The position numbers were made by a program, and so were the translations under genes. The notes beneath the pieces are model-generated. The model was not told the DNA's origin, made no database searches, and was given only the letters and a program-made list of their open reading frames with translations. A stretch of DNA of 64,000 nucleotides from assembly GCA_902522465.1 (NCBI GenBank), contig CABYVV010000002.1:65764-129763 (forward strand), given 5' to 3'. Positions 1 through 26,113 of the stretch are shown here, one piece after another. Positions within the stretch are counted from its first letter, which is position 1. Each line of letters begins with the position of its first letter. This DNA comes from an uncultured Alphaproteobacteria bacterium. Lineage in GTDB: Bacteria; Pseudomonadota; Alphaproteobacteria; Methylaequorales; Methylaequoraceae.

Positions 1-173
1 CAGAACTTATTTCATTGTATTCTTCTTTTAAAGATTCACCAGAATTTTGTATAAATAAAGTAACTTTATGACCAAGTTTTACTAGAACATGAGCAATAGA
101 GCAATTAATTATAAAGTCATTAGAATTGGTAGAAAGTACTAGAAGTCTTTTTTTTTGTTTGGATTTGAGACAT
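1..173 (-). CDS. Hypothetical protein, N-terminal fragment that runs off the window; weak LmbE/PIG-L-like pattern
   Basis: ATG is the complement of 171-173. The translation MSQIQTKKKRLLVLSTNSNDFIINCSIAHVLVKLGHKVTLFIQNSGE resembles the LmbE/PIG-L N-terminus (xLVLSPHPDDxxxGCGG...GHxV), but the HPDD metal motif is replaced by TNSND. It is co-directional with the glycan island. Confidence 0.3.
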
Positions 174-209
174 TTATTATGATTGAATTTTTCTAGAAGT
201 TTAAAATAC

Positions 210-872
210 CTATTTAATGACATAACTTATATAACTTGAATAGGGTAAAGTCTTTATGATGTTTGGTTTATTAGTGAAAAATTCATCAATAGCTTTGTTT
301 GCACCAGGAAAGGCACCATAATCGTCCAAGATCACCACCCCGTTTTTTACTAAATGAGGATAAAGAATATCTAGGCAGAGTTTAGTAGGTTCATACGTAT
401 CTACATCAATATGTAATAAAGAGATTTTTAAATGTTTATTTTCTTTTATAAACTTTGGAAGTGTTTTTAAAATATTTCCTTTTATTAAATCTAAATTATC
501 ATCAACCCCTAATTTTTTATAAATTCTTAATAATTCCTCTTTTTCAATAGATTGATTGCCAGCTTCATTAGTAAAACTTTTCAAATACTTTTTATCATCG
601 GATAAACATTTTTTAGGGAATTTTCCAAAAGTATCAAATGCTATTATCTTTTTTGATGATGAGTGTCCATAAAGTGCTCTTAGTTTTACGAATTGAGACA
701 AAGAAGATCCTTTAAAAACTCCACATTCAATTATTTCACCTGGGATAGCTTTTATTTTATTAAATAACTCAAATCTGCTAATTAGCTTACCAATTCTTTC
801 TACAGGTGCAGAAAGCATGTACGCGTTTTCGTAATCAAAATTATTTTTTATATTAACTACTTTTTTTTTCAT
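210..872 (-). CDS. Class I SAM-dependent O-methyltransferase, TylF/MycF (macrocin-O-methyltransferase) family
   Basis: 220-aa ORF. It has the 'IIECGVFKGSS' glycine-rich SAM loop and the 'LHIDVDTYEPT' and 'VVILDDYG' motifs typical of TylF-type sugar methyltransferases. Its start overlaps the upstream NeuB-like gene by 4 nt. Confidence 0.75.
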   Translation of the reverse strand: MKKKVVNIKNNFDYENAYMLSAPVERIGKLISRFELFNKIKAIPGEIIECGVFKGSSLSQFVKLRALYGHSSSKKIIAFDTFGKFPKKCLSDDKKYLKSFTNEAGNQSIEKEELLRIYKKLGVDDNLDLIKGNILKTLPKFIKENKHLKISLLHIDVDTYEPTKLCLDILYPHLVKNGVVILDDYGAFPGANKAIDEFFTNKPNIIKTLPYSSYISYVIK

Positions 873-1732
873 TTTACTAGTCTTAATTTATCCCTTATTT
901 TTTTTTCTGAATCATAAACTTTCTTAATTCCATCGCCCAAAGATTTTTCCAAAACTCTGATATCTCTGACTAATTTTTTCAAGCCTGTAGGCTCAAGAGA
1001 TGCAGCTTGATCAGTACCCCACATTGATCTGTCCAAGGTAAAGTGTCTTTCAATAAAACAAGCACCTAAAACGCATGCAGCCAAGGTAGTTTGAATTCCA
1101 AGCTCATGTCCAGAATAACCAATGGGATGGTCAAACTCTTCAATGAATTTTGGGATTACATTCAGATTAAGTTCCTCAGATTTACAAGGATATGCACTAG
1201 TAGAATGTGCAATCAGCAACTTTGTATTACTTAAAATTTCTTCTGCTTTTTTTATTTCCTTCATAGTAGACATTCCAGTTGAGAGAATTATAGCTTCTTT
1301 TAATTTAGAGTGTTCTTTTAAAAGTATGTTATCAGTTAAAGAAGCAGATGCAATTTTGTAGGCAACAGGATTAAAATATTTTATAAACTTTAGTGAGTCT
1401 AAGTCCCAGCAAGAAGCAAACCAGTCTATTCCTTTTTTTTTACAATATTTATCAATGAATATATAATCATCACTAGATAACTCAATTTTTTCCCTATACT
1501 CCAAGTAAGAGATTCTTCCCCATGGGGTATCTCTTTCAATTGATTTTTGTTCTTCGGGAACGCAAATTTGAGGAGTTCTTTTTTGAAATTTGACCGCATT
1601 AGCACCTGCTAAATGGGCCTCATCGATAAGCTTTTGCACTAATTTCATATCACCATTATGATTAATGCCAATTTCAGCAATAACATATATTGGATTGGAT
1701 TTACCAATTTTATGTTTACCAATTTTAATCAT
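869..1732 (-). CDS. neuB: NeuB-family nonulosonic (sialic/legionaminic/pseudaminic/KDN-type) acid synthase, short form
   Basis: 287-aa ORF. The N-terminus 'IYVIAEIGINHNGDMKLVQKLIDEAHLAGANAVKFQKR' and the later 'KIASASLTD' and 'YSGHELG' are NeuB TIM-barrel signatures. The ORF ends about 60 aa before canonical NeuB/PseI/LegI, so the SAF/antifreeze-like domain appears absent. The exact sugar specificity is not determinable. Confidence 0.85.
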   Translation of the reverse strand: MIKIGKHKIGKSNPIYVIAEIGINHNGDMKLVQKLIDEAHLAGANAVKFQKRTPQICVPEEQKSIERDTPWGRISYLEYREKIELSSDDYIFIDKYCKKKGIDWFASCWDLDSLKFIKYFNPVAYKIASASLTDNILLKEHSKLKEAIILSTGMSTMKEIKKAEEILSNTKLLIAHSTSAYPCKSEELNLNVIPKFIEEFDHPIGYSGHELGIQTTLAACVLGACFIERHFTLDRSMWGTDQAASLEPTGLKKLVRDIRVLEKSLGDGIKKVYDSEKKIRDKLRLVK

Positions 1733-2900
1733 TTACATTAGATAATATGATATTAGTTAATTCTCTAATAGCTCCATTACCTCCATTTTTTTTCAAAACG
1801 TGATCGACATTTTCCTTAATTAAACTTTCTGCATCATTAGGGCAAAAACTTACACCAACTTTTTGAATGCAATCAATGTCATTGACATCATTTCCTATAA
1901 AAATAACATCTTCATAAATAAGATTATTATTTTTTAACCAGTCATCTAGTATTTCTATTTTTTTACCATTGGTTTGAATACATTCAATATTTAATTTTGT
2001 CGCCCTTTTTTGAACCACGCGATTTCGTTCACTTGAAAGAATTAACAATTTGATATTTAAATTTTCTTTTAATTGTTTTAGCCCCATTCCATCGCTTCGT
2101 GAACACAAAACTAATTCATTACCATCTGAATCTAAATAGACTTTATTATTAGTATGTACTCCATCAAAATCCATTATCAATGCTTTTGGTTGGTTTATAA
2201 TTATTTTATTTTTAATAATAATATTTTTTAAATAAATTTCTGCTATTTCTGCATCTTGATAATCATTAATGTCTAACACCTTCTTTTTGTCTATTAAGAA
2301 TGGTTCACACTTACCGCAAAAACGATACTTATCTTTCAAAAAACTTTTTGTCCTCATAATATAAATTGAACCAGCTTCTAAATATTCTAATGGTCTTTTT
2401 TGTCTCATCAATCTTTTCCTTTGATCATGATTGATTCCTACAAACTTTTTATTGTTTTTTTTCCAAATAAAACCATCAAAAGACGTACATGCAAAGGTTG
2501 AATCAAGCTTATTTTTATTCAAATATTTTATTCCTTTTTCTATATCACAAAACGATATTAAGGGAGATGTACATTGTAAAAAAACAATAATATCCGGATT
2601 AATATTTTTTTTTTTATAATATTTTAGTGTATGAAGAATTGCGCTTTCAGACGATGAGTAGTCACTACTAATTTGTTTTGGTCTTTCAACAATATCTACA
2701 CAAAACCTTTTTGCAAAATCTTTGATTTCATTATCATCTGTTGATACAACTATCTTATCTACTGATTTAACTTTTTTTGACTCCTCTAATGTCCATTGTA
2801 ATAAAGGTTGTTTATTTACAATGTAAAGATTTTTTTTTTTAATTGATTTTGATCCACCTCTAGCAGGAATTATAATAAAAATATTATTTTTTTTTCTCAA
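1725..2900 (-). CDS. neuA: Bifunctional CMP-nonulosonate cytidylyltransferase (NeuA-like, N-terminal) fused to a KdsC-like HAD sugar-phosphate phosphatase (C-terminal)
   Basis: 391-aa ORF. The N-terminus 'IIIPARGGSKSIKKKNL' is the CMP-NeuAc/KDO synthetase P-loop-like motif. The C-terminal ~160 aa, 'LIMDFDGVHTNNKVYLDSDGNELVLCSRSDGMGLKQL...GNDVNDIDCIQKVGVSFCPNDA', matches C0-type HAD phosphatases (KdsC / KDN-9-P phosphatase). Confidence 0.85.
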   Translation of the reverse strand: MRKKNNIFIIIPARGGSKSIKKKNLYIVNKQPLLQWTLEESKKVKSVDKIVVSTDDNEIKDFAKRFCVDIVERPKQISSDYSSSESAILHTLKYYKKKNINPDIIVFLQCTSPLISFCDIEKGIKYLNKNKLDSTFACTSFDGFIWKKNNKKFVGINHDQRKRLMRQKRPLEYLEAGSIYIMRTKSFLKDKYRFCGKCEPFLIDKKKVLDINDYQDAEIAEIYLKNIIIKNKIIINQPKALIMDFDGVHTNNKVYLDSDGNELVLCSRSDGMGLKQLKENLNIKLLILSSERNRVVQKRATKLNIECIQTNGKKIEILDDWLKNNNLIYEDVIFIGNDVNDIDCIQKVGVSFCPNDAESLIKENVDHVLKKNGGNGAIRELTNIILSNVND

Positions 2901-2961
2901 TATTATTTCTCTTCTTTTTATCTTTTATTTATTTCATAATAATAGATTTCTATTTAAACAA

Positions 2962-4281
2962 TTATTTTTTTTTAGAAAAAATATATTCTGAAACTGAATC
3001 TACTACATAATCAAGCATTTGATTATCTGAGCCAGGAAAAACGCCTAACCAAAAAGTATCAAATAGAATTTTTTCTGTATTTTCTAATTTCCCTGAAACT
3101 TTATAAGTTTGACCAATCATATAAGGTTGTTTTAAAATATTTCCTGCAAATAAAAGTCTTGAATGAATATTTTTTTGCTCTAGGTATTTAATTAATTCAT
3201 TTCTGTTAAAATATTTGCTATTTCTAATGGTCAATGGGAACCCAAACCATGAAGGTTCAGTATTAATTGTTTTTCTTGGTAAAATAAAAAATTCTTCTAG
3301 ATCTTTAAATCTTTTTTGCAAATAATTAAAATTGTAGTTCCTTTTTTCAATAAAATTATTAAGTTTTTTTAGCTGTCCTAAACCACATGCTGCTTGCATA
3401 TCTGTAATTTTAAGATTAAATCCTAAATTTGAATAAATATATTTATGATCATAACCTTCTGGAAGATTTCCAAGTTTCCAGCAAAATCTTCGTCCACATG
3501 AGTTGTCTTTACCTGGAGCACAAAAACAATCTCTACCCCAATCTCTAATTGATTCTGCAATTTTCTTTAATTTGATATTATTGGTAAAAACTGCGCCTCC
3601 TTCTCCCATTGTAATGTGGTGAGCTGGATAAAAACTTAAAGTACCAAAGTCTCCAAAAGTACCAACATATTGACCGTTAAATTTTGAACCGAGTGCGTCA
3701 CAAGAATCCTCAATTAGCCATAAATTATATTTTTTGCAAATTTTTACTATAGTCTCTAAATTAAACGGATTTCCGAGAGTATGAGCAAGCATTATGGCCT
3801 TAGTTTTTTTTGTTATTGCACTTTCTATTTTTTCTTCGTCAATATTGTAATTTCCCATTTTAACATCTACAAAAACTGGAACAGCCTTATATAAAAGTAT
3901 TGGATTAATTGTTGTTGGAAAACCTGCAGCGACAGTAATCACCTCATCTCCTGCTTTGATTGCTTTTGAACCAAGTTTAGGTGAAGTAAGACTAGCAAAA
4001 GCAATTAAATTTGCTGAAGATCCTGAATTCACAGTTAATAAATAATTTGTATTAAGAAATGCAGACAATTTCTTTTCAAACTCCAAGTTAAATCTTCCGG
4101 TAGTTAAATGACCATCCAAAGCTGCATTAACCATATTAACTGTTTCTTCATGATCTAAAACTTTTCCAGAAACTAGGACTTTATCAAATCCTGGAGTAAA
4201 AGATTTTTTTGCATATTTAATATTCGAATAATGAATTACTAAATCTGAAATTTTCTTTCTTATGTCATCTAAGTGTTCCAT
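2962..4281 (-). CDS. rfbH: CDP-4-keto-6-deoxy-D-glucose 3-dehydrase (E1; RfbH/DdhC/AscC type), PMP- and [2Fe-2S]-dependent
   Basis: 439-aa DegT/DnrJ/EryC1-fold protein. The PLP-lysine position reads 'SFYPAHHITMGEGG', a Lys-to-His change as in E1 and ColD. Cys194-X57-Cys252-X1-Cys254-X7-Cys262 exactly reproduces the E1 iron-sulfur motif. I counted the spacing by hand from the translation. Confidence 0.85.
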   Translation of the reverse strand: MEHLDDIRKKISDLVIHYSNIKYAKKSFTPGFDKVLVSGKVLDHEETVNMVNAALDGHLTTGRFNLEFEKKLSAFLNTNYLLTVNSGSSANLIAFASLTSPKLGSKAIKAGDEVITVAAGFPTTINPILLYKAVPVFVDVKMGNYNIDEEKIESAITKKTKAIMLAHTLGNPFNLETIVKICKKYNLWLIEDSCDALGSKFNGQYVGTFGDFGTLSFYPAHHITMGEGGAVFTNNIKLKKIAESIRDWGRDCFCAPGKDNSCGRRFCWKLGNLPEGYDHKYIYSNLGFNLKITDMQAACGLGQLKKLNNFIEKRNYNFNYLQKRFKDLEEFFILPRKTINTEPSWFGFPLTIRNSKYFNRNELIKYLEQKNIHSRLLFAGNILKQPYMIGQTYKVSGKLENTEKILFDTFWLGVFPGSDNQMLDYVVDSVSEYIFSKKK

Positions 4282-4284
4282 TAA

Positions 4285-5424
4285 CTAATCTAAATTAATT
4301 TGAAATGGAAAGTTTGGAATCTGGATGATATTAGTAAGACTATCAAATAAATCTACTCTAATCTTCTCTGAAAAGTTATTAGATACATAAATTTGTAGAT
4401 AATTAATACACATTGTTACTTTAAGAATAAGATCTTTTCTGTCCTTAATATCTTTGAGAAAATTTTCAGTTTTTAGTAATCTACATAAATTGTTTGTGAG
4501 AATGTTTATATGACTATTTATTTCATCTGCATCAGTGCTTGTATGAACGTAATGAGGTAAAGATTTAAAAGTTGTAAATATTAAATGATCCCATAAATAA
4601 TATGTTTGATATCTGAAAAAAGAAAGACTTAAGCTCTGTGGTTTGAGAATTTTTAGATTTATTAGATTCTCAATATCATCAATTACATGGAAATATCTCC
4701 ATATCATGTTTTCTTCCAACCATCTTTTCTGTGTTTCTTCTGTCTGAGATTCGTCTTGGGTTTCAACCAAACCAATATCATAGAACAATCCTTTTTTATC
4801 ATGAGAATGTTTTAGAATTGATGCTGAATGAGGGTATGCCGAAGTTATTGAATCTTCAACATTATTATATTGAGTTTTAACAGATTGAGCAAAATCATCA
4901 AAAACCTTTTTAAAAGTTTGACCTTTTAAAATAATACTCGAAATCCAACCTAACATTTCATGATATCCAAACCTATTACAAAGATTAAAGACTTTATCAA
5001 TATATACTTTGGAGGTATTTTTAGATCTTTTCTTTTCACAAATACAAATAAACTCTAGATCGTTTGTATAATTTTTTTTCAAACACTCAAAGATTTTTTG
5101 AAGTGAATTATCCTCTGATAATTTATCATCATCTCCCATAAACCAAACCCATTCAATATCTGGGGATATGATTTTATTAAGATAAAATATATTAGGTTTG
5201 ATGAACTGATTCTCAGGTTTATTATAAATTTTTAAATTACTTCTTTTTTGAGTCTCTTTTTCTAAAAATTCACTTGTTCCATCAGTAGAAGCAATATTTG
5301 AAATAAATAAGGACAATTCTAAATCTTTACAAAAAATTTGATTATCTATCGAATTCAATAAAACTTTTAGTCTTTCTAGTCTGTTATATGTAGGAATTGC
5401 AATTGCAAGTTTAATTTTATTCAT
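4285..5424 (-). CDS. Glycosyltransferase family 2-like protein with an uncharacterised C-terminal domain
   Basis: 379-aa ORF. The N-terminus 'LAIAIPTYNRLERLKVLLNSIDNQ ... ISNIASTDGTSEFL' follows the GT2 pattern (PTYN...DxxSTDxT). The last ~200 aa have no motif I recognise. Confidence 0.6.
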   Translation of the reverse strand: MNKIKLAIAIPTYNRLERLKVLLNSIDNQIFCKDLELSLFISNIASTDGTSEFLEKETQKRSNLKIYNKPENQFIKPNIFYLNKIISPDIEWVWFMGDDDKLSEDNSLQKIFECLKKNYTNDLEFICICEKKRSKNTSKVYIDKVFNLCNRFGYHEMLGWISSIILKGQTFKKVFDDFAQSVKTQYNNVEDSITSAYPHSASILKHSHDKKGLFYDIGLVETQDESQTEETQKRWLEENMIWRYFHVIDDIENLINLKILKPQSLSLSFFRYQTYYLWDHLIFTTFKSLPHYVHTSTDADEINSHINILTNNLCRLLKTENFLKDIKDRKDLILKVTMCINYLQIYVSNNFSEKIRVDLFDSLTNIIQIPNFPFQINLD

Positions 5425-5547
5425 TTTTTTCTTTGCTAAAATTTAATAACATAAATTTACAGCAAAAGTTATGCCACACTTGCCTAATTAGAATAATACA
5501 ATTTTCTTCAATCACTTAACACTGATCTCTAATAATTTAAAATAAGG

Positions 5548-7185
5548 TTAAAGTTTATCAGCTAAATTATTAATGATACTTTTCCATTCTCTTTCATTAT
5601 TTTGCCTTAAGAGTTCAACAGATTGATACCACTCTGTTTTTTTTTCTTTTAAGCCCCATCTCCAGTCAGGAACGTTTGAAATTAGAACTTTGGTTGGTGT
5701 GCCAATTGTACCTGAGATATGAGCTAAGGAAGTATCCACAGTTATTACCTCATCTAATCTAGAAACTATGATTGCAGTATCTATCCAGTTACTTATGAGC
5801 TTATCACATAATATGACATTTTTAAATTTTCTCAGCAAATCACGTTCCTTTTTAGAAATTTCTTTGTCTATAACTAAAAAAGTAATTTTCTTATTTTTAA
5901 AAATTCTACTAAAAAGTTCTAAATCAATAGATCTTGATTCATCAAATAGGTGTTTTTTATTACCCTTCCAGGACACACCAATAATTCTACCTTTTTGTTT
6001 AAACTTTCCTAATTTTTGAATGAGCTCTTCTTTATTTTTTTCTATTTTTTTAAAATTAAACTTAATAGGTGCAGGAGGTTTATCTATCAGATCAAGAATA
6101 AAAGGCAAATTGAGTACAATTGTTTTAAAATCAAAATTTTCTATTTCTTTATTATCAATTTTTTTTATAAATCTTATTTTTTCGCTACCTTCACAACATT
6201 TTAAAAGTGATACAATAGATTCTTTTGGTGCAATAGTTGTAATGGAATGACCCATTTCTTGCAGATAGGGTAAATATCTAAAGAAATTGATGACATCACC
6301 AAAACCTTGTTCCATGAAAACCAAAATTTTATATGATTTTTTTGTCTTAATATGTAACTTATTTAAGTCTTCTAAATCCTCAATTTCTTTTACGTAATTA
6401 TTATTTTCGATTTTTTTCGTATCAATGACATTGTATAAATTTATTCTTCTTGAAGAATTTAATTGATTATATAATTTATAACCCTCAAATCTTTTACCTA
6501 TTCTTAAATAAAAAATAGCTATATCAACCATAATTTCATTGTCATCTGAATAAAGTTTTAAGGCTTTTTTATATATTTCTTCTGCCTCTTCATATCTTGA
6601 TTCCTCTTGTAATAGTGATGCCAAAAGCATAAAATATCTTTTGTGTTTGGGGTTAATTTGTTGAGCAGTTGATAAACACAATTTAGTCATTTGAAGATTT
6701 CTTGTTAAAAAGTAACAAAAACCTAGATCCAACCAGTAAGAGCATTCATGTGGATTTTTCTTTACCGATTTTTCTAAGAAACTTAATGCTTTATATTTTT
6801 CTCCATTGAAAAGTAAATCTTTTCCAATTAGATTCAAAAAAAAAGGATCTTCGGGATGGTATTTAATAGCATTTTTAACAGCATCTGCCATTTTGAAATC
6901 GAACTTTAATTTTATTAGAATTTGAATATAAAGATGATGTGCTGAATGAAATCTTGGTTCATTCTTTATAATATATTCTAATCTTTTGACTGCGTCTATG
7001 ATGTTTCCCTTTGAAAAATCATAAGAGGCAATTGTAAGATTTCCAATATCAAATTTTTTTTTGTTTGTGTACTTATCATAAAAATAATCAAAGCCTTTTA
7101 ATTTTACTGAATTAAAATTTGATTTGTCTCTGATTGACTTTACAAAGTTAGTAATGATTTCAGAATGCGAATTTCTTAGTTCCAT
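5548..7185 (-). CDS. TPR-repeat protein with a C-terminal GT9-like (heptosyltransferase-fold, GT-B) glycosyltransferase domain
   Basis: 545-aa ORF. The N-terminal ~250 aa are TPR-like helical repeats. The C-terminus has 'FMEQGFGDVINFFRYLPYL' and 'VDTSLAHISGTIGTPTKVLISNVPDWRWG...EWYQSVELLRQ', typical of alphaproteobacterial TPR-GT9 proteins. Confidence 0.75.
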   Translation of the reverse strand: MELRNSHSEIITNFVKSIRDKSNFNSVKLKGFDYFYDKYTNKKKFDIGNLTIASYDFSKGNIIDAVKRLEYIIKNEPRFHSAHHLYIQILIKLKFDFKMADAVKNAIKYHPEDPFFLNLIGKDLLFNGEKYKALSFLEKSVKKNPHECSYWLDLGFCYFLTRNLQMTKLCLSTAQQINPKHKRYFMLLASLLQEESRYEEAEEIYKKALKLYSDDNEIMVDIAIFYLRIGKRFEGYKLYNQLNSSRRINLYNVIDTKKIENNNYVKEIEDLEDLNKLHIKTKKSYKILVFMEQGFGDVINFFRYLPYLQEMGHSITTIAPKESIVSLLKCCEGSEKIRFIKKIDNKEIENFDFKTIVLNLPFILDLIDKPPAPIKFNFKKIEKNKEELIQKLGKFKQKGRIIGVSWKGNKKHLFDESRSIDLELFSRIFKNKKITFLVIDKEISKKERDLLRKFKNVILCDKLISNWIDTAIIVSRLDEVITVDTSLAHISGTIGTPTKVLISNVPDWRWGLKEKKTEWYQSVELLRQNNEREWKSIINNLADKL

Positions 7186-7280
7186 CTTTTAATTATTTAT
7201 GATTTTATATTCAGTAAGACAAATACAAATTTTGTGCCAATAGAAAATAGAATTTATTTGATGAAAAATAATGATAAAGA

Positions 7281-8477
7281 TTAGAATTTTGTTTTTTCGT
7301 GAAATCCTTTTGAAGCTAACAAACATAAAAGTAGATAGTAGCTCCCCTGCCACCATTCTAACCAAAAAGAGAAATTAACCAAGGAAGCTCCCCAAAAGTA
7401 TGCATTTAAAAAAATAAGGAAAATGTGAAAATTTACAGAATTATTTATTTTGAAAATTCTAAAATTTATCAAAAATAGGAATAAAACAAATAAAGTTGTT
7501 CCAATTAAACCTGTCTCTAATAGAAGTTCAAAAAAGAAATTATGAGGATGGCTGGGAATAAAATTCATATCTCCAGTAAATTTAATTCCAATATCCTCTT
7601 GACTTCCTTCAATAAAATTTGATGAGTCTGGACCATATCCAAATAACGGTTTGTTCTTAAATTTATCAAATGTAAAACCCCAAATAATTTGCCGATGAGC
7701 ATCAACTATATTGAGTGGTATTTTATATTCAAAATTAGTCATATAATTTTTATCAAATCTATTTGGTAAATTACTTATAAAAATATTTGTAAGGAAAATT
7801 ACTATTGAAAATGAAATAAAAATTATCGAATTTTTGTAAAATGATGATTTTACATATTTTTTGAATAAAAAATAAATTATACAAAACATAGTCCCTACTA
7901 ACAAGCCAAGAAGGCTAGAAGCTGATCCAGTCATAAAAATGTTAGGAATTAGAAGAACAGAAGAAATTAAATTTAGTTTAGATTTAAAGAAGTATAAATT
8001 TAAAATTGTTATCAAAGAGATAATATTCATATAACCTTTAAACATAACTAGTTCATTTGAATTATAATTGACAATGTTATAGGTAAAGATAAGTACTGAG
8101 TTAAAAAGAATACTTAAAGATAGTGTTTTGAATAAAAGTTCTAAATTACTTTTATTTCGATGAAAAATCAAAAATGTCAAAAAAGAGAAAAAAAGAAATA
8201 TAATGAGATAAATTAAAACTGAAAAAGATCTATTTATTTCAATAGAATTAATTGAGGAAAATAAAAATGATATAAAAAAAAAACAAATTAGATAAACATC
8301 AAAGGTTTTTGTTTGCTTAATAACCTTCTTTAATTCTTTTATGATTAGACTTTTATTAGTTGCTAATAAAATTAAAATACCTAAGCCAACGGAAATACCA
8401 AATGCAATTTTATTTATGATCAAGAATGTAAAAGAAAATCCAATTAAAATTATTGAGTACCCTGAAAAATTTTTCAT
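7281..8477 (-). CDS. O-antigen ligase / polymerase-like (WaaL/Wzy_C family) polytopic membrane protein
   Basis: 398-aa highly hydrophobic ORF with about 10 predicted TM segments. The periplasmic-loop motif 'IPSHPHNFFFELLLETGLIG' matches the Wzy_C/O-antigen ligase signature (HxHNxxLexxxexG). Confidence 0.7.
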   Translation of the reverse strand: MKNFSGYSIILIGFSFTFLIINKIAFGISVGLGILILLATNKSLIIKELKKVIKQTKTFDVYLICFFFISFLFSSINSIEINRSFSVLIYLIIFLFFSFLTFLIFHRNKSNLELLFKTLSLSILFNSVLIFTYNIVNYNSNELVMFKGYMNIISLITILNLYFFKSKLNLISSVLLIPNIFMTGSASSLLGLLVGTMFCIIYFLFKKYVKSSFYKNSIIFISFSIVIFLTNIFISNLPNRFDKNYMTNFEYKIPLNIVDAHRQIIWGFTFDKFKNKPLFGYGPDSSNFIEGSQEDIGIKFTGDMNFIPSHPHNFFFELLLETGLIGTTLFVLFLFLINFRIFKINNSVNFHIFLIFLNAYFWGASLVNFSFWLEWWQGSYYLLLCLLASKGFHEKTKF

Positions 8478-8484
8478 TATGATA

Positions 8485-8736
8485 TTAAAAAATAATAATA
8501 ATTATTATCCATCCAATAAATATTGAAACCAATACGAAAACAAATACCTTAAATATTGAATTTAAACGAGTTAAAAGTTTTTCTTTACTGAATCTTGAAA
8601 AAAAAAAAACAATTAATTTTCTTAAATTATTTATTATTAATAGGACAAATGCTCCTATAAAAAAATAAAAAATTAATTTTAAAATATTGAAGTAGAAGCC
8701 AATCTCTTTTTGCCATTCAGCAATTATGTCCAGCAT
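8485..8736 (-). CDS. Small hypothetical membrane protein
   Basis: 83-aa ORF with two hydrophobic stretches. It sits directly upstream of the WaaL-like gene and is co-directional with it. I recognise no motif. Confidence 0.4.
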   Translation of the reverse strand: MLDIIAEWQKEIGFYFNILKLIFYFFIGAFVLLIINNLRKLIVFFFSRFSKEKLLTRLNSIFKVFVFVLVSIFIGWIIIIIIF

Positions 8737-8737
8737 G

Positions 8738-8878
8738 TCAGGAATTTATTGAGTTTTGCTCACAGGTTGAGCAAATCTGATAGTCAATTGATCTTTTTGG
8801 ATATATAGTATTTATTTCGTCTGAGTACACCCAGAAGACTGAGCCACATTTTTGGCACTCAATCCAGAGTTTCTCCAT
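8738..8878 (-). CDS. Unannotated small zinc-ribbon-like protein (46 aa)
   Basis: Hand translation of the minus strand gives MEKLWIECQKCGSVFWVYSDEINTIYPKRSIDYQICSTCEQNSINS, with two CxxC pairs (CQKC...CSTC). It fills the gap next to the 83-aa ORF. It is below the size cut-off of the ORF track. Confidence 0.4.
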   Translation of the reverse strand: MEKLWIECQKCGSVFWVYSDEINTIYPKRSIDYQICSTCEQNSINS

Positions 8879-9048
8879 AATAGAAATTATTAACTTGATT
8901 TAAGTTTATCAAGTACTTTTGCGAATATTCCTTGAAGTTCTTCTTTTTTAAGTTTTTTAGGATCAACTTTGATTTTTTTTGCCATTTTTATTTCCTTCCA
9001 AAGTAATATATATTATTCTTTGAAAAATAACCTGTCAATAAAGAAATA

Positions 9049-9462: not shown

Positions 9463-9464
9463 TA

Positions 9465-10013: not shown

Positions 10014-10020
10014 GGTGAGC

Positions 10021-11028: not shown

Positions 11029-11066
11029 CATAAATTGCTAAACTTATATCTAGAAAGAGGATTACA

Positions 11067-11855
11067 ATGGCAATTAATGCGATGCATGTAGCAAAAACCG
11101 GTCTAAATGCCCAACAGGTTAGAATGCAAATTATCTCAAATAATTTAGCAAACGTGAACACTAATGGATTTAAAAGAGACAGAGCAAACTTTGAATCCCT
11201 ATTGTATCAGATCATAAGAAGCAGTGGTGCACAAACATCCGTTGATACAGAATTAACTTCGGGCTTTTCAGTCGGTACTGGTGTTAACATCGTGAATTCT
11301 AACAAGTTACATTCACAAGGAAGTATAGTTTCGACTGATAATTCTCTTGATTTAGCCATTGATGGAGGAGGGTTTTTTCAGGTGTTATTACCTGACGGTC
11401 AGGTAGTCTATACCAGAAACGGTGCTTTCTCTAGAAATAATGAAGGTATTTTAACAACAAATAGTGGTTTTATTATTCAGCCTGAAATTGCTATCCCTGC
11501 TGAGGCAACAAAAATAAATGTTTCTGCAGATGGAATAGTATCAGTTCAAATACCTGAACAGGTTGAGGCTCAGGAAGTTGGTCAGCTTCAATTAGCTGAT
11601 TTTCAAAATAGAACTGGGTTACAACCAATAGGAGAGAATTTCTATGTTGAAACAACATCAAGTGGTCCACCCGTTATTGAGAACCCATTTGCGGCAGGTT
11701 TTGGTAAAATCATTCAAGGCGCATTGGAAAGTTCTAATGTAAATGTTGTACAAGAATTAGTTGATATGATTGAAACTCAAAGAGCATATGAAGTAAATTC
11801 AAAAGCAATCACATCTGTTGATGAGATGTTGAGATTTGTAAGTAACAACCTGTAG
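11067..11855 (+). CDS. flgG: Flagellar basal-body distal rod protein FlgG
   Basis: 262 aa. The N-terminus 'AKTGLNAQQVRMQIISNNLANVNTNGFK' and the C-terminus 'SNVNVVQELVDMIETQRAYEVNSKAI' are rod-family signatures. It is followed by flgH and flgI. Confidence 0.95.
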   Translation: MAINAMHVAKTGLNAQQVRMQIISNNLANVNTNGFKRDRANFESLLYQIIRSSGAQTSVDTELTSGFSVGTGVNIVNSNKLHSQGSIVSTDNSLDLAIDGGGFFQVLLPDGQVVYTRNGAFSRNNEGILTTNSGFIIQPEIAIPAEATKINVSADGIVSVQIPEQVEAQEVGQLQLADFQNRTGLQPIGENFYVETTSSGPPVIENPFAAGFGKIIQGALESSNVNVVQELVDMIETQRAYEVNSKAITSVDEMLRFVSNNL

Positions 11856-11857
11856 GA

Positions 11858-12556
11858 ATGAAGATGAGATATTTTTTATTTATTACATTATTTTTTCTTC
11901 AGAGTTGTGCTTCTCACATGCAAGATAGAATTGGTGAGGAATTCCAGAGTATACAACCAGATTACTCTAACTTTGAAAATATAAATAACGCAACTGAAGG
12001 TGCGGTTTACGATGGTGACGGTGGTCTTTTTGCATCCGACAGGAGAGCAAACAGAGTTGGAGATATAATTACGGTAACTTTAGAAGAAACTGTTACAGCC
12101 GCTAACTCAGGATCTGAAACACTAGCTAAATCTGATGCATACACTTTTGATCTTCCAGAGGCATTATTTGGTCCTTCATCATTAATTGGAAAATTATTAT
12201 TTCCTGGAGGGGTTAAAGAAGGAAATCTTCAAGGTGGTACAACTCAAAACTTTACAGGTTCTGGAACTGCAGCTCAAGCTAATAGTATAACGGGTACAAT
12301 ATCAGTAACAATTGTAAGAGTTTATCCAAATGGAAATCTTGAAGTAAAAGGACAAAGAAGGCTTAAATTTAATAGTGGTACAGAATATATCAGACTTGCG
12401 GGCGTTATCAGACCAGATGATATTTCATCAACCAATACGGTTTCATCAAAGAAGGTTGCTGATGCTCAAATTTCTTATACTGGTACTGGTGATATGAATG
12501 ATAGTGTTACAAAGGGATGGTTAAGTAGATATTTTGCTTACGTCTCACCTTTTTAG
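11858..12556 (+). CDS. flgH: Flagellar L-ring lipoprotein FlgH
   Basis: 232 aa. It has a lipoprotein signal with the lipobox 'FLQSC'. '[15 protein letters not shown]', '[30 protein letters not shown]' and 'GWLSRYF' match FlgH. Confidence 0.95.
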
Positions 12557-12563
12557 GATAATT

Positions 12564-13682
12564 ATGAAAAAATTTTTAATGATATTTTGCATTACTTTTC
12601 TAACAAATCAATCAGTCTTTGCTGACAGGATAAAAGATATGGCTTCTTTTGCTGGAGTAAGATCAAATCAACTTGTTGGTTATGGCCTAGTGATTGGTTT
12701 GGCAAAAACTGGTGATGGAAGTGTGAACTTAACTAAACAAAGTATTGCAGCTATGATATCTCAATTTGGTGTGATTGCTAACACAGCAGACATTGATGCT
12801 ACGAACTCCGCAAATGTGATGGTAACGGCAAATCTTCCTCCATTTGCAAAACCAGGTCAAACAATTGACGTAACTGTTTCAACCATTGGAAAAGCAAAGT
12901 CTTTAAAAGGAGGTACTCTTTTGATGACAGCTCTGAAAGGGGCTGATGGAGAAGTTTACGCAATTGCTCAAGGCAATTTAGTTGTTGGAGGATTAGGCGT
13001 TGAGGGTGCTGATGGATCAACTACAATACAAGGAACCCCCACTGTGGGGAGAATTCCTGGTGGAGCAACTGTTGAGAAATTGGTAGAAAATACATTTTTG
13101 GAAAGAGATAATGTTGTGCTAAATTTACATCAAGCTGACTTTTCTCAAGCTAATAGAATTGCAAATACTATTAATGAAACATTTGGACCTGAAGTTGCAA
13201 TTCCAATGGACTCAACCTCAATAAAAGTTAGAACACCTAAAAACCCATCTCAGAAAGTTTCATTTATTGGTTTGCTTGAAAATATAAATTTTGAACCAGT
13301 TACTCCTAAAGCCAAGGTTGTTGTAAATTCAAGAACAGGAACTGTTGTGATAGGTGGCGATGTAAGAATTTCACCGGCAGCGGTTGCTCATGGAAGTTTG
13401 TCAGTAAAAATTCAAGAAGACACTAAGTTGTTATCTGAAGGTACAGGAACGGTGGTTGGAAGTTCTGCTACAGTCTCTGGAACAGCAGCAACAACAGCTG
13501 CAGATACTCAAATAGAAGTTGATGAGGCCCCAGCAAGAGCTTTTGTTTTTGATCCTGGAATAGAGTTGCAAACATTAGTAGATGCTTTAAACGAAACTGG
13601 AACAACAGCAACAGATATGGTCGCAATTCTTGAGGCACTCAGAGAAGCAGGTGCATTAAGAGCTGAACTAATAATAATTTAA
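12564..13682 (+). CDS. flgI: Flagellar P-ring protein FlgI
   Basis: I chose the start at MKKFLMIF (12564) rather than the ORF-track 12534, which would overlap flgH. Signal peptide ends '...SVFA'. The mature '[32 protein letters not shown]' and the C-terminus '[18 protein letters not shown]' are classic FlgI. Confidence 0.95.
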
Positions 13683-13697
13683 CTTATTGGATAAATT

Positions 13698-14003
13698 ATG
13701 GACAACAATCCAATCGCCAAAATCAGACCAATCAATAATTTTGAGCTTTCAACCTCTAAACTTGATAATTTAAATGAAAAATCCGAACTTTCACAGGTTG
13801 CCCAAGAATTTGAATCGTTATTTGTTTATCAAATGTTGAAAAGTGCAAGAAAAGCTAAATTAGCTGAAAGTTTGTTTTCAAATCAAGGTAGCGAAACTTA
13901 TGAGTCTTTATTAGACCAAGAATACTCAAAAACAATTGCCAAAAATCATAGTTTTGGAATTGCTGATGCATTAGTCAGGCAATTTGGAGGAAAAAGAAAA
14001 TAA
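13698..14003 (+). CDS. flgJ: Single-domain FlgJ (rod-binding/rod-capping domain only, no muramidase domain)
   Basis: 101 aa. 'QVAQEFESLFVYQMLKSARKA' and 'YESLLDQEYSKTIAK..GIADALVRQF' match the FlgJ N-terminal rod-binding domain. The ORF ends before any glucosaminidase domain. It sits between flgI and flgK. Confidence 0.85.
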   Translation: MDNNPIAKIRPINNFELSTSKLDNLNEKSELSQVAQEFESLFVYQMLKSARKAKLAESLFSNQGSETYESLLDQEYSKTIAKNHSFGIADALVRQFGGKRK

Positions 14004-19094: not shown

Positions 19095-19102
19095 TTAATA
19101 TT

Positions 19103-19118
19103 AGGCATGAAAATTGCT
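19103..19118 (+). promoter_or_regulatory. Sigma54-like motif immediately upstream of flgL (uncertain function)
   Basis: AGGCATgaaaaTTGCT has the correct 10-nt GG-GC spacing. However, the -12 GC is only about 13 nt from the flgL ATG and no SD is visible. It is therefore either a leaderless-type transcript or a coincidence. Confidence 0.35.
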
Positions 19119-19129
19119 AATTTAAACTT

Positions 19130-21820: not shown

Positions 21821-21838
21821 TATTAAGGAGAAAATAAT

Positions 21839-26110: not shown

Positions 26111-26113
26111 AAA

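What the first reader, a model, noticed from the sequence alone, without database searches (positions are those of the whole stretch)
210..8477. Minus-strand glycan island combining nonulosonic-acid and 3,6-dideoxyhexose chemistry, 2 kb from the flagellar locus
Seven or eight co-directional, tightly packed genes make up the island. In transcription order these are a WaaL/Wzy-like membrane protein, a TPR-GT9 glycosyltransferase, a GT2, an E1-type 3-dehydrase, a NeuA-phosphatase fusion, a NeuB-like synthase, a TylF-type O-methyltransferase and a partial LmbE-like ORF. Together they imply synthesis, CMP-activation, methylation and transfer of an acidic nine-carbon sugar, plus a dideoxyhexose. Flagellin O-glycosylation with pseudaminic or legionaminic-type sugars is well established in Campylobacter, Helicobacter, Aeromonas and Caulobacter. 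The class B flagellin here has a Ser/Thr-rich exposed domain. Whether this island decorates flagellins, LPS/capsule, or both is open. The nucleotidyltransferase, 4,6-dehydratase and E3 reductase needed with E1 are not in the window and may lie beyond position 1.
Basis: partly seen in the sequence, partly recalled or inferred. Interest (0 to 1): 0.7.

Follow-up and report, generated by a model that had tools for sequence, protein, structure and literature searches.

The report
Replaceable flagellar glycosylation island, proximal part
The flagged genes are real and form the first third of a ~20 kb sugar-making and sugar-attaching gene island beside the flagellar genes of an uncultured marine alphaproteobacterium; it most likely decorates the flagellar filament with unusual sugars, and related species carry a different version at the same site.

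Summary
Window 210-8477 (minus strand) carries seven tightly packed genes: Wzy_C membrane protein, TPR + GT-B glycosyltransferase, GT2, true E1/RfbH 3-dehydrase, CMP-nonulosonate synthetase fused to a KdsC-type phosphatase, short NeuB, and a TylF methyltransferase. The eighth, partial ORF (1-223) is not LmbE-like. It is the N-terminus of a 497-aa GT-B enzyme of the KpsC/KpsS (CMP-Kdo transferase) superfamily.

A 99.95%-identical SAG contig extends the locus beyond position 1. Also present are a YerE-like ThDP enzyme, an SDR, a radical-SAM enzyme, a methyltransferase and a second TPR-GT paralog.

In about 13 related species genomes the slot between flgKJIHG and guaAB holds alternative cassettes. 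One relative has only a FliB flagellin lysine methylase plus a TPR-GT. Another lineage keeps its cassette on the fliS/flagellin side of the flagellar cluster.

Best reading (about 0.6): a replaceable flagellin glycosylation island with FlmG-like protein glycosyltransferases. It would attach a C-branched 3,6-dideoxyhexose and a methylated Kdn/Neu-type sugar made through a 9-phosphate intermediate, not Pse/Leg. No glycan has been observed, and an LPS target is not excluded. This is a new variant of a known kind.

The parts
1..223 (-). First 74 codons of a 497-aa GT-B glycosyltransferase (orf497) of the KpsC/KpsS (PF05159) superfamily. Its start overlaps the TylF stop by 14 nt. It is the candidate CMP-nonulosonate transferase. 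It is not LmbE-like.
   Evidence: Translation matches L001:10650-12143. The protein itself has no Pfam or NCBIfam hit. However, 7/16 close and 31/44 sampled distant relatives hit PF05159. The AF2 model has pLDDT 86 and a GT-B fold. Its best TM-scores are to the CMP-Kdo transferases WbbB (8csf) and KpsC (8fux). An R-x-H-P motif is invariant.
210..872 (-). TylF-family SAM-dependent O-methyltransferase, 220 aa.
   Evidence: PF05711 E 5.4e-21, PF13578 E 1e-12. It overlaps NeuB by 4 nt. It occurs only in the cassette type that also has NeuA/NeuB.
869..1732 (-). Short-form NeuB-family ulosonate synthase, 287 aa, lacking the C-terminal SAF/antifreeze-like domain.
   Evidence: PF03102 E 9e-76. TIGR03569 gives 258.8 bits and PseI 190 bits, both below their cutoffs. 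[quoted passage not shown]
1725..2900 (-). Bifunctional CMP-nonulosonate synthetase (residues ~1-225) fused to a KdsC/KDN-9-P-type HAD phosphatase (residues ~235-390).
   Evidence: PF02348 E 6e-25. PseF model 122 bits, KDN-9-P phosphatase NF058599 107 bits, KdsC TIGR01670 101.6 bits. PDB hits are NeuA structures for the N-half, and 3mmz, 3e8m and the mouse CMAS C-domain 3ewi for the C-half.
2962..4281 (-). E1-type CDP-6-deoxy-D-xylo-4-hexulose 3-dehydrase (RfbH/DdhC/AscC).
   Evidence: NF011936 696.1 bits against a cutoff of 423. It has the C194-X57-C252-X1-C254-X7-C262 [2Fe-2S] motif and His at the PLP-lysine position.
4285..5424 (-). GT2-family glycosyltransferase, 379 aa. Only the N-terminal ~120 aa match the family; the C-terminal 250 aa are unassigned.
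   Evidence: PF00535 E 2.8e-11. It is 78-79% identical in relatives that carry the same cassette.
5548..7185 (-). TPRGT1: an N-terminal TPR array (~50-245) plus a compact C-terminal GT-B domain (~286-545). The architecture resembles FlmG/OGT/SPINDLY. It is the candidate flagellin O-glycosyltransferase.
   Evidence: TPR Pfam hits. The AF2 model has pLDDT 89.1. Foldseek top hits are the TPR + GT-B protein glycosyltransferases SPINDLY and OGT. GT9-like signals are weak. Homologs are flagellar-linked in about 13 alphaproteobacterial genomes and in Geotalea.
7281..8477 (-). Wzy_C (O-antigen ligase/polymerase family) polytopic membrane protein, 398 aa. It is a conserved edge gene of the slot and its role is unresolved.
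   Evidence: PF04932 66.9 bits. It has no NCBIfam or PDB sequence match. It is present next to the type A, type B and minimal cassettes at 51-70% identity, and absent next to type C.
8485..8736 (-). 83-aa hydrophobic ORF directly upstream of Wzy_C. It may be a real small membrane protein.
   Evidence: ORF listing. An 83-aa gene is called at the same position in L007. No family hit.
22853..24412 (+). 519-aa flagellin with a central surface domain. It is the most likely glycan acceptor. Shorter flagellins lie at 21065-21820, 21839-22597 and 26573-27337.
   Evidence: Flagellin_N, Flagellin_IN and Flagellin_C domains. Ser+Thr make up 22-34% per 50-aa window in the central domain.
11067..20410 (+). 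Adjacent flagellar genes: flgG, flgH, flgI, a rod-binding (FlgJ-like) gene, a giant 1696-aa FlgK and FlgL. They form the conserved left flank of the island slot.
   Evidence: Pfam hits. The same order holds in L003, L008-L018 and L028.

Best explanation
Window 1-8477 is the flagellum-proximal third of a ~20 kb replaceable flagellar glycosylation island. The island fills a fixed slot between the flagellar cluster (flgK-J-I-H-G, then HAD/AhpC/YjbQ) and guaA-guaB in an uncultured, low-GC marine alphaproteobacterium.

Proposed working:

1. Deoxyhexose branch. RfbF and RfbG (beyond position 1) make CDP-4-keto-6-deoxy-D-glucose. The E1 dehydrase (2962-4281) removes O-3, drawing electrons from an unidentified general reductase because no E3 is encoded nearby. 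A YerE-like ThDP carboligase and an SDR then add and reduce a carbon branch at C-4. The product would be a yersiniose-like CDP-sugar.

2. Nonulosonate branch. Short NeuB condenses PEP with a hexose-6-phosphate (Man-6-P or ManNAc-6-P). The phosphatase half of the NeuA fusion removes the 9-phosphate and the cytidylyltransferase half makes the CMP-sugar. TylF O-methylates the sugar at an unknown stage.

3. Transfer, in the cytoplasm before export. TPRGT1 (and its paralog TPRGT2) dock on flagellin through the TPR array and O-glycosylate Ser/Thr of the exposed domain. From co-occurrence, the donor is probably the CDP-derived sugar. GT2 and the KpsC-like orf497 (CMP-sugar donor) would extend the glycan.

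What is shown: gene identities, synteny, cassette replacement and flagellar linkage.
What is inferred: the acceptor, the exact sugars, which transferase uses which donor, and the order of steps.
For: Gene identities.

Extension: L001 is 99.95% identical to window 1-10872. It carries RfbF, RfbG, a 634-aa ThDP enzyme, an SDR, a radical-SAM/SPASM enzyme, a methyltransferase and TPRGT2.

YerE-like enzyme: the best PDB match of the ThDP enzyme is JanthE (8rph, 324 bits, end to end), against 240 bits for acetolactate synthase. 8rph is the crystal structure of a YerE-like enzyme (PMC12188165). YerE acts on CDP-4-keto-3,6-dideoxy-D-glucose (PMC9306805; PMC12247030).

Flagellar association:
- TPRGT1 homologs sit beside flgG..flgK in 9 species-representative genomes (L008-L010, L012, L013, L015, L017, L018, L028). 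Two more, L011 and L014, show the same cassette bounded by guaA-guaB and, in L014, AhpC/YjbQ, but have no flagellar genes in view because the contig flank is short. In the SAT45 lineage (L004-6, L016) the homolog sits on the opposite, flagellin/fliD/fliS side.
- In L028 the same slot holds only a FliB flagellin lysine-N-methylase (NF038110, 201.7 bits against a cutoff of 85), a TPRGT2 ortholog, a conserved 295-aa ORF and a methyltransferase.
- In Geotalea sp. SG265 two TPR-GT9 homologs lie between motAB and a flagellin/flbT pair.

Architecture: TPRGT1 is TPR + GT-B, like FlmG, whose TPR domain binds flagellin (PMC7591256). Its fold matches are the TPR-GT protein O-glycosyltransferases SPINDLY and OGT.

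Co-occurrence logic: RfbF/RfbG and TPRGT1 are present in cassette types A, B and C. NeuA/NeuB/TylF/orf497 occur only in type A.

Phosphorylated route: pathways that use sugar-6-phosphates need a phosphatase, and most bacterial NeuB routes do not (PMC6200933). Window NeuB is 36% identical to the characterised Kdn-9-P synthetase, which is also a short form.

No gene in the island matched a Wzx, Wzz, WecA/WbaP or KpsMTED family. About 14 of 17 genes have a family assignment, and none of the unassigned ones is a plausible flippase by size or hydrophobicity, apart from the 83-aa ORF.
Against: - No glycan has been observed and the organism is uncultured.
- Three unrelated genes (YjbQ, AhpC, HAD) separate the island from flgG.
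- A Wzy_C (O-antigen ligase family) gene heads the island. This is what an LPS locus would have, and cytoplasmic flagellin glycosylation does not need it.
- All YerE-type branched sugars described so far are LPS or secondary-metabolite components.
- GT9 is classically an LPS-core family and PF05159 a capsule family.
- Direct sequence homology between TPRGT1 and Caulobacter FlmG could not be tested.
- 4 of 6 distant TPR-GT homolog loci (Thiomargarita, Tepidisphaeraceae, Polaromonas, Pelagibacteraceae) show no flagellar genes within 10 kb.
- E3 is missing.
- NeuB is equally similar to a Kdn-9-P synthase and to an uncharacterised short NeuB, so the sugar identity is not fixed.
Confidence: 0.6

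Rival explanations
1. The island is an LPS/LOS (or capsule) glycan island that merely lies near the flagellar genes. GT9-like, GT2 and KpsC-like transferases would build a short oligosaccharide, containing a yersiniose-like sugar and a nonulosonate, on lipid A-core or a lipid carrier. The Wzy_C protein would ligate or polymerise it.
For: - The Wzy_C gene is conserved at the island edge.
- YerE-type sugars are so far known from LPS.
- The only PDB sequence hit of the TPRGT1 GT domain is the LPS heptosyltransferase WaaF.
- orf497 belongs to the capsule-associated PF05159 superfamily.
- Hypervariable O-chain islands are the commonest replacement islands in marine bacteria (PMC4033161, listed; the specific claim rests on my own knowledge).
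Against: - No Wzx, Wzz, ABC exporter or initiating phosphoglycosyltransferase was found in ~20 kb.
- TPR arrays are not a feature of LPS heptosyltransferases, but they are the flagellin-binding module of FlmG.
- In one lineage the cassette moved to the other side of the flagellar cluster and stayed beside flagellin/fliS, without a Wzy_C gene.
- In L028 the slot holds a flagellin lysine methylase.
Confidence: 0.2
2. The island has a dual use. It supplies activated sugars to both flagellin (through the TPR-GTs) and a lipid-linked surface glycan (through Wzy_C, GT2 and orf497). Shared Pse/Leg pools of this kind serve flagellin and O-antigen in Aeromonas.
For: Protein-directed (TPR-GT) and lipid/LPS-type (Wzy_C, PF05159) components occur together in one co-directional gene string. 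Shared flagellum/LPS sugar pathways are cited in PMC7591256.
Against: - Wzy_C is kept unchanged in position beside cassettes with entirely different sugar genes, and beside the minimal cassette that has no sugar genes. This suggests it is a neighbour and not a functional partner.
- There is no export machinery in the island.
Confidence: 0.13
3. The island supports general periplasmic protein O-glycosylation. A lipid-linked glycan would be transferred en bloc by the Wzy_C protein acting as a PglL/PilO-type oligosaccharyltransferase.
For: From established knowledge, PglL-type O-OTases carry the Wzy_C domain. The Wzy_C protein here matches no WaaL-specific curated model.
Against: - No flippase or initiating transferase is present.
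- The TPR-GTs are predicted soluble cytoplasmic enzymes.
- Flagellins are exported through the flagellar type III channel and do not pass through the periplasm.
Confidence: 0.04

Closest known systems
FlmG-type flagellin glycosylation of Caulobacter crescentus and Brevundimonas subvibrioides (PMC7591256; bioRxiv 10.1101/2022.03.25.485807)
   Same: - It occurs in an alphaproteobacterium.
- It uses a soluble two-module enzyme with an N-terminal TPR array and a C-terminal GT-B domain.
- It depends on a NeuB-family synthase and a CMP-synthetase.
- It serves several flagellin paralogs.
   Different: - FlmG uses CMP-Pse or CMP-Leg made by six-enzyme pathways from UDP/GDP-GlcNAc. Those genes are absent here.
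- There are two paralogous TPR-GTs, and by co-occurrence they track a CDP-deoxyhexose pathway, not the nonulosonate genes.
- The GT domain is distantly GT9-like.
- Sequence homology to FlmG was not tested.
Yersiniose A pathway of the Yersinia pseudotuberculosis O:VI O-antigen (DdhA-D, YerE, YerF), and YerE-like ErwE/JanthE
   Same: - It has RfbF/DdhA, RfbG/DdhB and an E1/DdhC with the same Fe-S motif.
- It has a ThDP enzyme of the decarboxylase superfamily. Its closest solved relative is the YerE-like enzyme JanthE.
- It has an adjacent SDR.
   Different: - There is no E3/DdhD.
- The context is flagellar, not an O-antigen cluster with wzx/wzy.
- A radical-SAM/SPASM enzyme and a methyltransferase sit in the same sub-cluster.
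- The donor keto-acid, and so the branch length, is unknown.
Kdn pathway of Bacteroides thetaiotaomicron (BT1713-1715) and Prymnesium parvum; vertebrate CMAS
   Same: - It combines a NeuB-family synthase, a KdsC-type 9-phosphate phosphatase and a CMP-synthetase.
- The synthase is a short form, as in P. parvum.
- The cytidylyltransferase-phosphatase fusion mirrors the vertebrate CMAS domain order.
   Different: - Substrate specificity is untested.
- NeuB is only 36% identical to the P. parvum enzyme and is equally close to an uncharacterised short NeuB (6ncs).
- A TylF methyltransferase and a KpsC-like transferase are translationally coupled to it.
Replacement flexible genomic islands for flagellar glycosylation in Alteromonas (PMC4033161, PMC3458243)
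   Same: - The chromosomal slot is fixed and lies next to flagellar genes.
- Different strains or species carry non-homologous glycosylation cassettes between conserved flanks.
   Different: - The host is a streamlined, uncultured alphaproteobacterium, not a copiotrophic gammaproteobacterium.
- The enzyme families differ: TPR-GT instead of Maf-type, CDP-sugar chemistry, and two alternative ThDP branching systems.
KpsC/KpsS and WbbB retaining beta-Kdo transferases (GT107/GT99)
   Same: - orf497 has a GT-B fold with its best TM-scores to these enzymes.
- It has an invariant HP motif.
- Its relatives hit PF05159.
- Its donor is expected to be a CMP-activated 2-keto-3-deoxy acid.
   Different: - orf497 itself falls below Pfam detection.
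- There is no kpsMTED export system nearby.
- It is coupled to NeuA/NeuB, so the donor is probably a nine-carbon sugar.
- The acceptor is probably a protein-linked glycan, not a lipid.

Membership tests
Flagellin glycosylation island | Nucleotide-sugar biosynthesis and glycosyltransferase genes are clustered next to flagellar structural genes, and the linkage is conserved in relatives. | tested here: met
   The island starts 2.6 kb from flgG. The linkage is kept in 9 species-representative genomes on the flgG side and in the SAT45 lineage on the flagellin/fliS side.
Flagellin glycosylation island | Flagellin carries O-linked glycan. | not testable with these tools
   This needs intact-mass or glycopeptide MS. 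The only sequence-level hint is 22-34% Ser+Thr in the central domain of the 519-aa flagellin.
Flagellin glycosylation island | Cassette content varies between strains or species while the flanks are conserved. | tested here: met
   Types A, B and minimal all lie between YjbQ/Wzy_C and guaA-guaB.
FlmG-class flagellin glycosyltransferase | N-terminal TPR domain plus C-terminal GT-B domain in one soluble protein. | tested here: met
   Pfam TPR hits. The AF2 model, pLDDT 89, has helical repeats at 7-239 and two Rossmann-like lobes at 286-545. Foldseek top hits are SPINDLY and OGT.
FlmG-class flagellin glycosylation | Detectable sequence homology to C. crescentus FlmG (CCNA_01524). | not tested
   The FlmG sequence could not be obtained.
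FlmG-class flagellin glycosyltransferase | The donor is CMP-pseudaminic or CMP-legionaminic acid. | tested here: inconclusive
   No PseB/C/H/G or LegB/C/H/G genes are in the island. TPRGT1 orthologs occur in cassettes B and C, which lack NeuA/NeuB but have RfbF/RfbG. This argues for a different donor.
FlmG-class flagellin glycosylation | The TPR domain binds flagellin. | not testable with these tools
   This needs two-hybrid or pull-down assays.
CDP-3,6-dideoxyhexose pathway (rfbFGH / ddhABCD / asc) | Glucose-1-P cytidylyltransferase and CDP-glucose 4,6-dehydratase. | tested here: met
   TIGR02623 425.7 bits (cutoff 300) and TIGR02622 449.7 bits (cutoff 278), on L001:18604-19368 and L001:17534-18607.
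CDP-3,6-dideoxyhexose pathway | E1 3-dehydrase with a PMP-type His and the C-X57-C-X-C-X7-C [2Fe-2S] motif. | tested here: met
   NF011936 696 bits. Cys194/252/254/262 and the A-H-H-I-T motif at 219-223. The motif definition comes from my own knowledge of the Yersinia E1 literature.
CDP-3,6-dideoxyhexose pathway | Dedicated E3 (DdhD/AscD) [2Fe-2S] flavoprotein reductase. | tested here: not met
   There is none among the called genes of L001 or L007, and none among the ten further window ORFs scanned. The rest of the genome was not searched.
YerE/YerF-type C-branching of deoxy-keto sugars | A ThDP enzyme of the decarboxylase superfamily that is closer to YerE-like enzymes than to acetolactate synthase, next to genes that make CDP-4-keto-3,6-dideoxyglucose. 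| tested here: met
   It scores 324 bits end to end against JanthE (8rph) and 240 bits against ALS II. 8rph is the YerE-like enzyme JanthE. It is below every ALS curated cutoff.
YerE/YerF-type C-branching | YerF-type NAD(P)H side-chain reductase. | tested here: inconclusive
   A 364-aa extended SDR lies beside the ThDP gene, but it matches no specific model.
Pse/Leg nonulosonate pathways | A NeuB-family synthase that reaches the PseI or NeuB/LegI curated cutoff, plus upstream dehydratase, aminotransferase, acetyltransferase and hydrolase genes. | tested here: not met
   PseI 190 bits (cutoff 340) and NeuB 259 bits (cutoff 400). No upstream genes are in the island.
Phosphorylated (Kdn/Neu5Ac-9-P) nonulosonate pathway | Synthase plus a KdsC-family 9-phosphate phosphatase plus a CMP-synthetase. 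| tested here: met
   The domain fusion is at 1725-2900 and NeuB at 869-1732. The phosphatase requirement is described in PMC6200933. Substrate specificity was not tested.
Classical Wzx/Wzy O-antigen cluster | Wzx flippase, Wzz chain-length regulator and an initiating phosphoglycosyltransferase. | tested here: not met
   None was found among the ~17 island genes. Only a Wzy_C-domain protein is present.
KpsC/KpsS (PF05159) CMP-ulosonate transferases (for orf497) | Pfam PF05159 match. | tested here: inconclusive
   orf497 and its closest homologs give no hit. However, 7/16 family members and 31/44 profile-retrieved relatives do.
KpsC/KpsS (PF05159) CMP-ulosonate transferases (for orf497) | GT-B fold with an HP motif. 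| tested here: met
   AF2 pLDDT 86. The best TM-scores are to WbbB 8csf (TMt 0.49) and KpsC 8fux (TMt 0.51). H322-P323 is invariant.

The most novel reading that the evidence does not exclude
Flagellin, and perhaps the giant Ser/Thr-rich FlgK, of these abundant uncultured marine alphaproteobacteria is O-glycosylated directly from a CDP-activated, ThDP-branched 3,6-dideoxyhexose. The enzyme would be a TPR-GT9-like protein. This would be the first YerE-type branched sugar outside LPS or antibiotics, and the first CDP-sugar-dependent protein O-glycosyltransferase. A KpsC-like enzyme would then cap the glycan with a methylated Kdn-type sugar. Alternative cassettes at the same slot reach a branched sugar through a different ThDP superfamily (split transketolase). 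That would imply selection for branched deoxysugars on the filament together with constant turnover of their exact structure.
Probability: 0.3. Interest if true: 0.72.

Novelty: new variant of a known kind. Interest (0 to 1): 0.55.

Why it matters
Flagellar glycosylation islands and FlmG-type enzymes are known, so the category is not new. This locus would extend it in three ways.

1. It would put LPS-type branched 3,6-dideoxyhexose chemistry into a flagellar context.
2. It offers three untested enzyme candidates. These are a TPR-GT9-like protein glycosyltransferase that probably uses a CDP-sugar, a KpsC-like transferase coupled to a nine-carbon sugar pathway, and a bacterial NeuA-phosphatase fusion with a short NeuB. 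All are of interest for glycoengineering.
3. It shows that even streamlined, uncultured oligotrophic marine bacteria keep a hypervariable slot for filament decoration. This fits phage or grazer-driven diversification and gives a concrete marker locus for glycotype population studies in SAG and metagenome data.

Tried and rejected
**Readings tested and rejected**
- LmbE-like reading of the edge ORF. It is rejected: there is no such hit, and the evidence points to a KpsC/KpsS-type GT-B protein.
- Pse/Leg pathway. It is rejected for the island: both synthase models are below cutoff and there are no upstream genes.
- Classical O-antigen cluster. It is not supported: there is no wzx, wzz or initiating transferase.
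- Guess that the organism is AEGEAN-169/HIMB59. This is weakly rejected. The clade's genome paper never mentions flagella. Records only say 'uncultured Alphaproteobacteria' or 'Rickettsiales bacterium'.
- GC anomaly as a sign of recent transfer. Island GC is 25-29%, but several housekeeping stretches of the window are equally low.

**Searches that found nothing useful**
- E3 reductase. It was looked for among island genes and ten other window ORFs and not found.
- Rfam scan of the window: no RNA families.
- Promoter and terminator scan of 1-11100. It was no better than shuffles (78 sites against 73 +/- 8 expected; 1 terminator against 2.5), so no operon boundaries were called.
- PDB sequence searches for Wzy_C and orf497: nothing.
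- NeuB specificity. The protein is equally similar to the Kdn-9-P synthetase and to 6ncs, so specificity is unresolved.

- The whole-protein profile search of TPRGT1 against PDB was swamped by TPR hits. It was redone with the GT domain only.
It was repeated with the close family A4.
- Contig look-ups for P0054 (182 kb contig, probably the window's own lineage) and P0082 (Caballeronia) failed. The far end of the island in the window's own genome is therefore inferred from L007 and L028.
- The FlmG sequence is not in the paper supplements.

Full report
**1. The observation**

Window 210-8477 holds seven complete minus-strand ORFs, separated by -14 to +123 bp.

| Coordinates | Assignment | Evidence |
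|---|---|---|
| 7281-8477 | Wzy_C membrane protein | PF04932, 66.9 bits |
| 5548-7185 | TPR repeats plus an unassigned C-terminal half | TIGR02193 heptosyltransferase I only at E 0.0057 |
| 4285-5424 | GT2 | PF00535 |
| 2962-4281 | RfbH/E1 | NF011936, 696 bits, cutoff 423 |
| 1725-2900 | cytidylyltransferase + KdsC/KDN-9-P-type HAD phosphatase | |
| 869-1732 | NeuB | E 9e-76; 287 aa, so no SAF/antifreeze-like domain |
| 210-872 | TylF | PF05711 |

- E1 carries Cys194-X57-Cys252-X-Cys254-X7-Cys262 and a His at the Schiff-base lysine position. To my knowledge these are the hallmarks of the PMP/[2Fe-2S] 3-dehydrase.
- The flagellar locus is real: flgG 11067, flgH, flgI, a rod-binding protein, a 1696-aa FlgK, FlgL, four flagellin-family genes, FliD and FliS paralogs.
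- Three unrelated genes (YjbQ, AhpC-type, HAD) fill the 2.6 kb between the island and flgG.

**2. What lies beyond position 1**

- An exact-protein look-up with TylF returned contig CACALT010000011.1 of the SAG assembly GCA_902533395.1 (L001). It is 99.95% identical to window 1-10872 and continues 9.8 kb past position 1.
- The edge ORF (window 1-223) is the start of a 497-aa protein. After it come, in order:
  - a radical-SAM/SPASM enzyme (488 aa);
  - a methyltransferase (299 aa);
  - a ThDP enzyme (634 aa);
  - an SDR (364 aa);
  - CDP-glucose 4,6-dehydratase (TIGR02622, 449.7 bits, cutoff 278);
  - glucose-1-P cytidylyltransferase (TIGR02623, 425.7 bits, cutoff 300);
  - a second TPR protein.
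No E3 reductase was found there or in ten further window ORFs.
- The ThDP enzyme is below all acetolactate-synthase cutoffs. Its best solved relative by a wide margin is 8rph (324 bits, end to end, against 240 bits for ALS II).
- 8rph is JanthE, a YerE-like enzyme (PMC12188165). YerE adds a two-carbon branch from pyruvate to CDP-4-keto-3,6-dideoxy-D-glucose, which is the E1 pathway product. YerF then reduces the branch (PMC9306805; PMC12247030).
- The dideoxyhexose here is therefore probably a C-4-branched, yersiniose-like sugar.

**3. The edge ORF is a glycosyltransferase, not LmbE**

- The 497-aa protein has no Pfam, NCBIfam or PDB sequence hit of its own.
- Among its homologs, 7 of 16 hit PF05159 (Capsule_synth, the KpsC/KpsS family).
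- A profile search of 1.84 billion representatives found 7135 relatives at E <= 0.001. Of 44 sampled, 31 hit PF05159.
- An AlphaFold model of the 79%-identical P0035 (pLDDT 86) is a GT-B fold. Its best TM-scores are to the CMP-Kdo transferases WbbB and KpsC.
- An R-x-H-P motif is invariant.
- The gene overlaps the TylF stop and occurs only together with NeuA/NeuB/TylF.
- I infer that it transfers the CMP-activated nine-carbon sugar.

**4. The TPR proteins**

- The AlphaFold model of TPRGT1 (pLDDT 89.1) shows a TPR solenoid (about 7-239) and a compact two-lobed GT-B domain (286-545).
- The best structural matches are SPINDLY and OGT, which are TPR + GT-B protein O-glycosyltransferases.
- A profile of the GT domain alone hits only the heptosyltransferase WaaF in PDB (E 0.046). 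Several distant family members carry PF01075. The GT9 relationship is therefore distant.
- The second TPR protein is a true paralog: 25% identity over 410 aa including the GT domain, E 2e-42.
- Caulobacter FlmG has the same architecture. Its TPR half binds flagellin and its GT-B half sets donor specificity (PMC7591256 and bioRxiv 10.1101/2022.03.25.485807).
- I could not obtain the FlmG sequence, so homology is untested.

**5. Comparative context**

- A scan of one genome per GTDB species with the TPRGT1 family found 17 loci. I mapped these, together with contigs from exact-protein look-ups, by tblastn.
- The host clade is labelled only 'uncultured Alphaproteobacteria' (GORG SAGs) or 'Rickettsiales bacterium' (MAGs).
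- The slot is constant: flgK-J-I-H-G | (HisPhos) | HAD | AhpC | YjbQ | Wzy_C | cassette | guaA | guaB. Its contents differ.

| Cassette | Loci | Contents |
|---|---|---|
| Type A | window, L001, L003/9, L007, L008, L010, L027 | TPRGT1-GT2-E1-NeuA/HAD-NeuB-TylF-orf497-rSAM-MT-ThDP-SDR-RfbG-RfbF-TPRGT2-orf296-MT |
| Type B | L011-L015, L017, L018 | TPRGT1 (about 43% id)-split transketolase-SDR-TylC3-type C-methyltransferase-RfbG-RfbF-GT2 |
| Minimal | L028 | FliB flagellin lysine-N-methylase (NF038110, 201.7 bits, cutoff 85)-TPRGT2 ortholog-orf295-MT |
| Type C | L004-6, L016 | Like B, plus E1 and a radical-SAM enzyme. It lies on the other side of the flagellar cluster, directly after flagellin-fliD-fliS-flagellin-fliS-CLC-fliS, and has no Wzy_C. 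|

- In Geotalea sp. SG265, a distant phylum, two TPR-GT9 homologs sit between motAB and a flagellin/flbT pair.
- Four other distant homolog loci show no flagellar genes.
- Within type A, biosynthetic genes are 87-94% identical to the window. TPRGT1 (52%) and Wzy_C (57%) are the most diverged.

**6. The nonulosonate branch**

- No Pse or Leg upstream enzymes and no NeuC are present. NeuB is below both the PseI and the NeuB/LegI cutoffs.
- The cytidylyltransferase is fused to a KdsC-type phosphatase. Its solved relatives include the B. thetaiotaomicron KDN-9-P phosphatase and the C-terminal domain of mouse CMAS.
- Phosphatases are needed only in routes that start from sugar-6-phosphates (B. thetaiotaomicron, P. 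parvum, humans; PMC6200933).
- Window NeuB is 36% identical (151 bits) to the characterised, equally short P. parvum Kdn-9-P synthetase. It is just as close to the uncharacterised short NeuB 6ncs.
- A Kdn or Neu5Ac-type sugar made through a 9-phosphate intermediate, then O-methylated by TylF, is therefore plausible but not established.

**7. Interpretation**

The best-supported reading is a replaceable flagellar glycosylation island. Its cytoplasmic TPR-GTs would modify flagellin. Four results favour flagellin over LPS:
- the protein-binding TPR module;
- linkage to flagellar genes on either side of the cluster;
- a flagellin methylase occupying the same slot in a relative;
- the absence of any flippase, chain-length regulator, exporter or initiating transferase.

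Against this:
- the Wzy_C gene is present;
- YerE sugars, GT9 and PF05159 all have LPS or capsule pedigrees;
- E3 is missing;
- there is no chemical evidence at all.

I put the flagellar model at about 0.6, an LPS/LOS island at about 0.2, dual use at about 0.13 and PglL-type glycosylation at about 0.04.

**8. Novelty**

The following are all published:
- flagellar glycosylation islands;
- FlmG-type enzymes;
- replacement islands next to flagellar genes in marine bacteria (Alteromonas; PMC4033161);
- YerE-type branching.

The combination here is not:
- TPR-GT9-like enzymes tracking a CDP-3,6-dideoxyhexose/ThDP-branching pathway;
- a KpsC-like transferase coupled to a short NeuB and a NeuA-phosphatase fusion;
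- two different ThDP superfamilies in alternative cassettes of one slot.

I rate it a new variant of a known kind, of moderate interest.

Noticed in passing
window 14004-19094 (+): FlgK is 1696 aa, several times the usual size. It has a long central insert with up to 36% Ser+Thr per 50 aa. Relatives have versions of 1696-1788 aa. It could be a second glycosylation target or an unusual hook-filament junction.
   Followed up: partly
window 21065-27778 and 29878-30264 (+): There are four flagellin-family genes (251, 252, 519 and 254 aa; the last has only the N-domain by Pfam) and three FliS-like chaperone genes. The two TPR-GT paralogs might each serve a different flagellin class.
   Followed up: no
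window 27818-29524 (+): A CLC chloride channel with a CBS domain is embedded between the second and third FliS genes. The arrangement is conserved in the SAT45 lineage (L004-L006, L016).
   Followed up: no
L028:8691-9938 (GCA_036337355.1): A FliB flagellin lysine-N-methylase (NF038110, 201.7 bits) occupies the slot between Wzy_C and the TPRGT2 ortholog in a relative that has no sugar-biosynthesis genes there.
   Followed up: yes
L004:11631-15473; L012-L018 around 11.6-15.5 kb: Alternative cassettes pair RfbF/RfbG with a split transketolase and a TylC3-type C-methyltransferase instead of the YerE-like enzyme. Two ThDP superfamilies therefore appear to do sugar branching at the same locus.
   Followed up: partly
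L001:12149-14519 (beyond window position 1): A 488-aa radical-SAM/SPASM enzyme and a 299-aa methyltransferase are co-oriented with the YerE-like gene. They are 91-94% and 79-87% conserved across type A relatives. Their role in sugar tailoring is unknown. Type C has a different radical-SAM enzyme next to E1.
   Followed up: no
window 10692-11067: The histidine-phosphatase gene found between flgG and the HAD gene in all relatives is absent from the window genome. Only 375 bp remain there.
   Followed up: no
window 8485-8736 (-): An 83-aa hydrophobic ORF lies directly upstream of Wzy_C. The same ORF is called at the same place in L007. It has no family.
   Followed up: no
L007:20318-21208, L028:11552-12439, L027:11350-12267: A conserved ~296-aa protein with no family always follows TPRGT2 (64-95% identity) and is followed by a methyltransferase. 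It may be a fixed partner module of TPRGT2.
   Followed up: partly
L019 (Thiomargarita MAG) and L020 (Tepidisphaeraceae MAG): Three tandem TPR-GT paralogs occur with no flagellar genes within 10 kb. The wider family is therefore not exclusively flagellar.
   Followed up: partly
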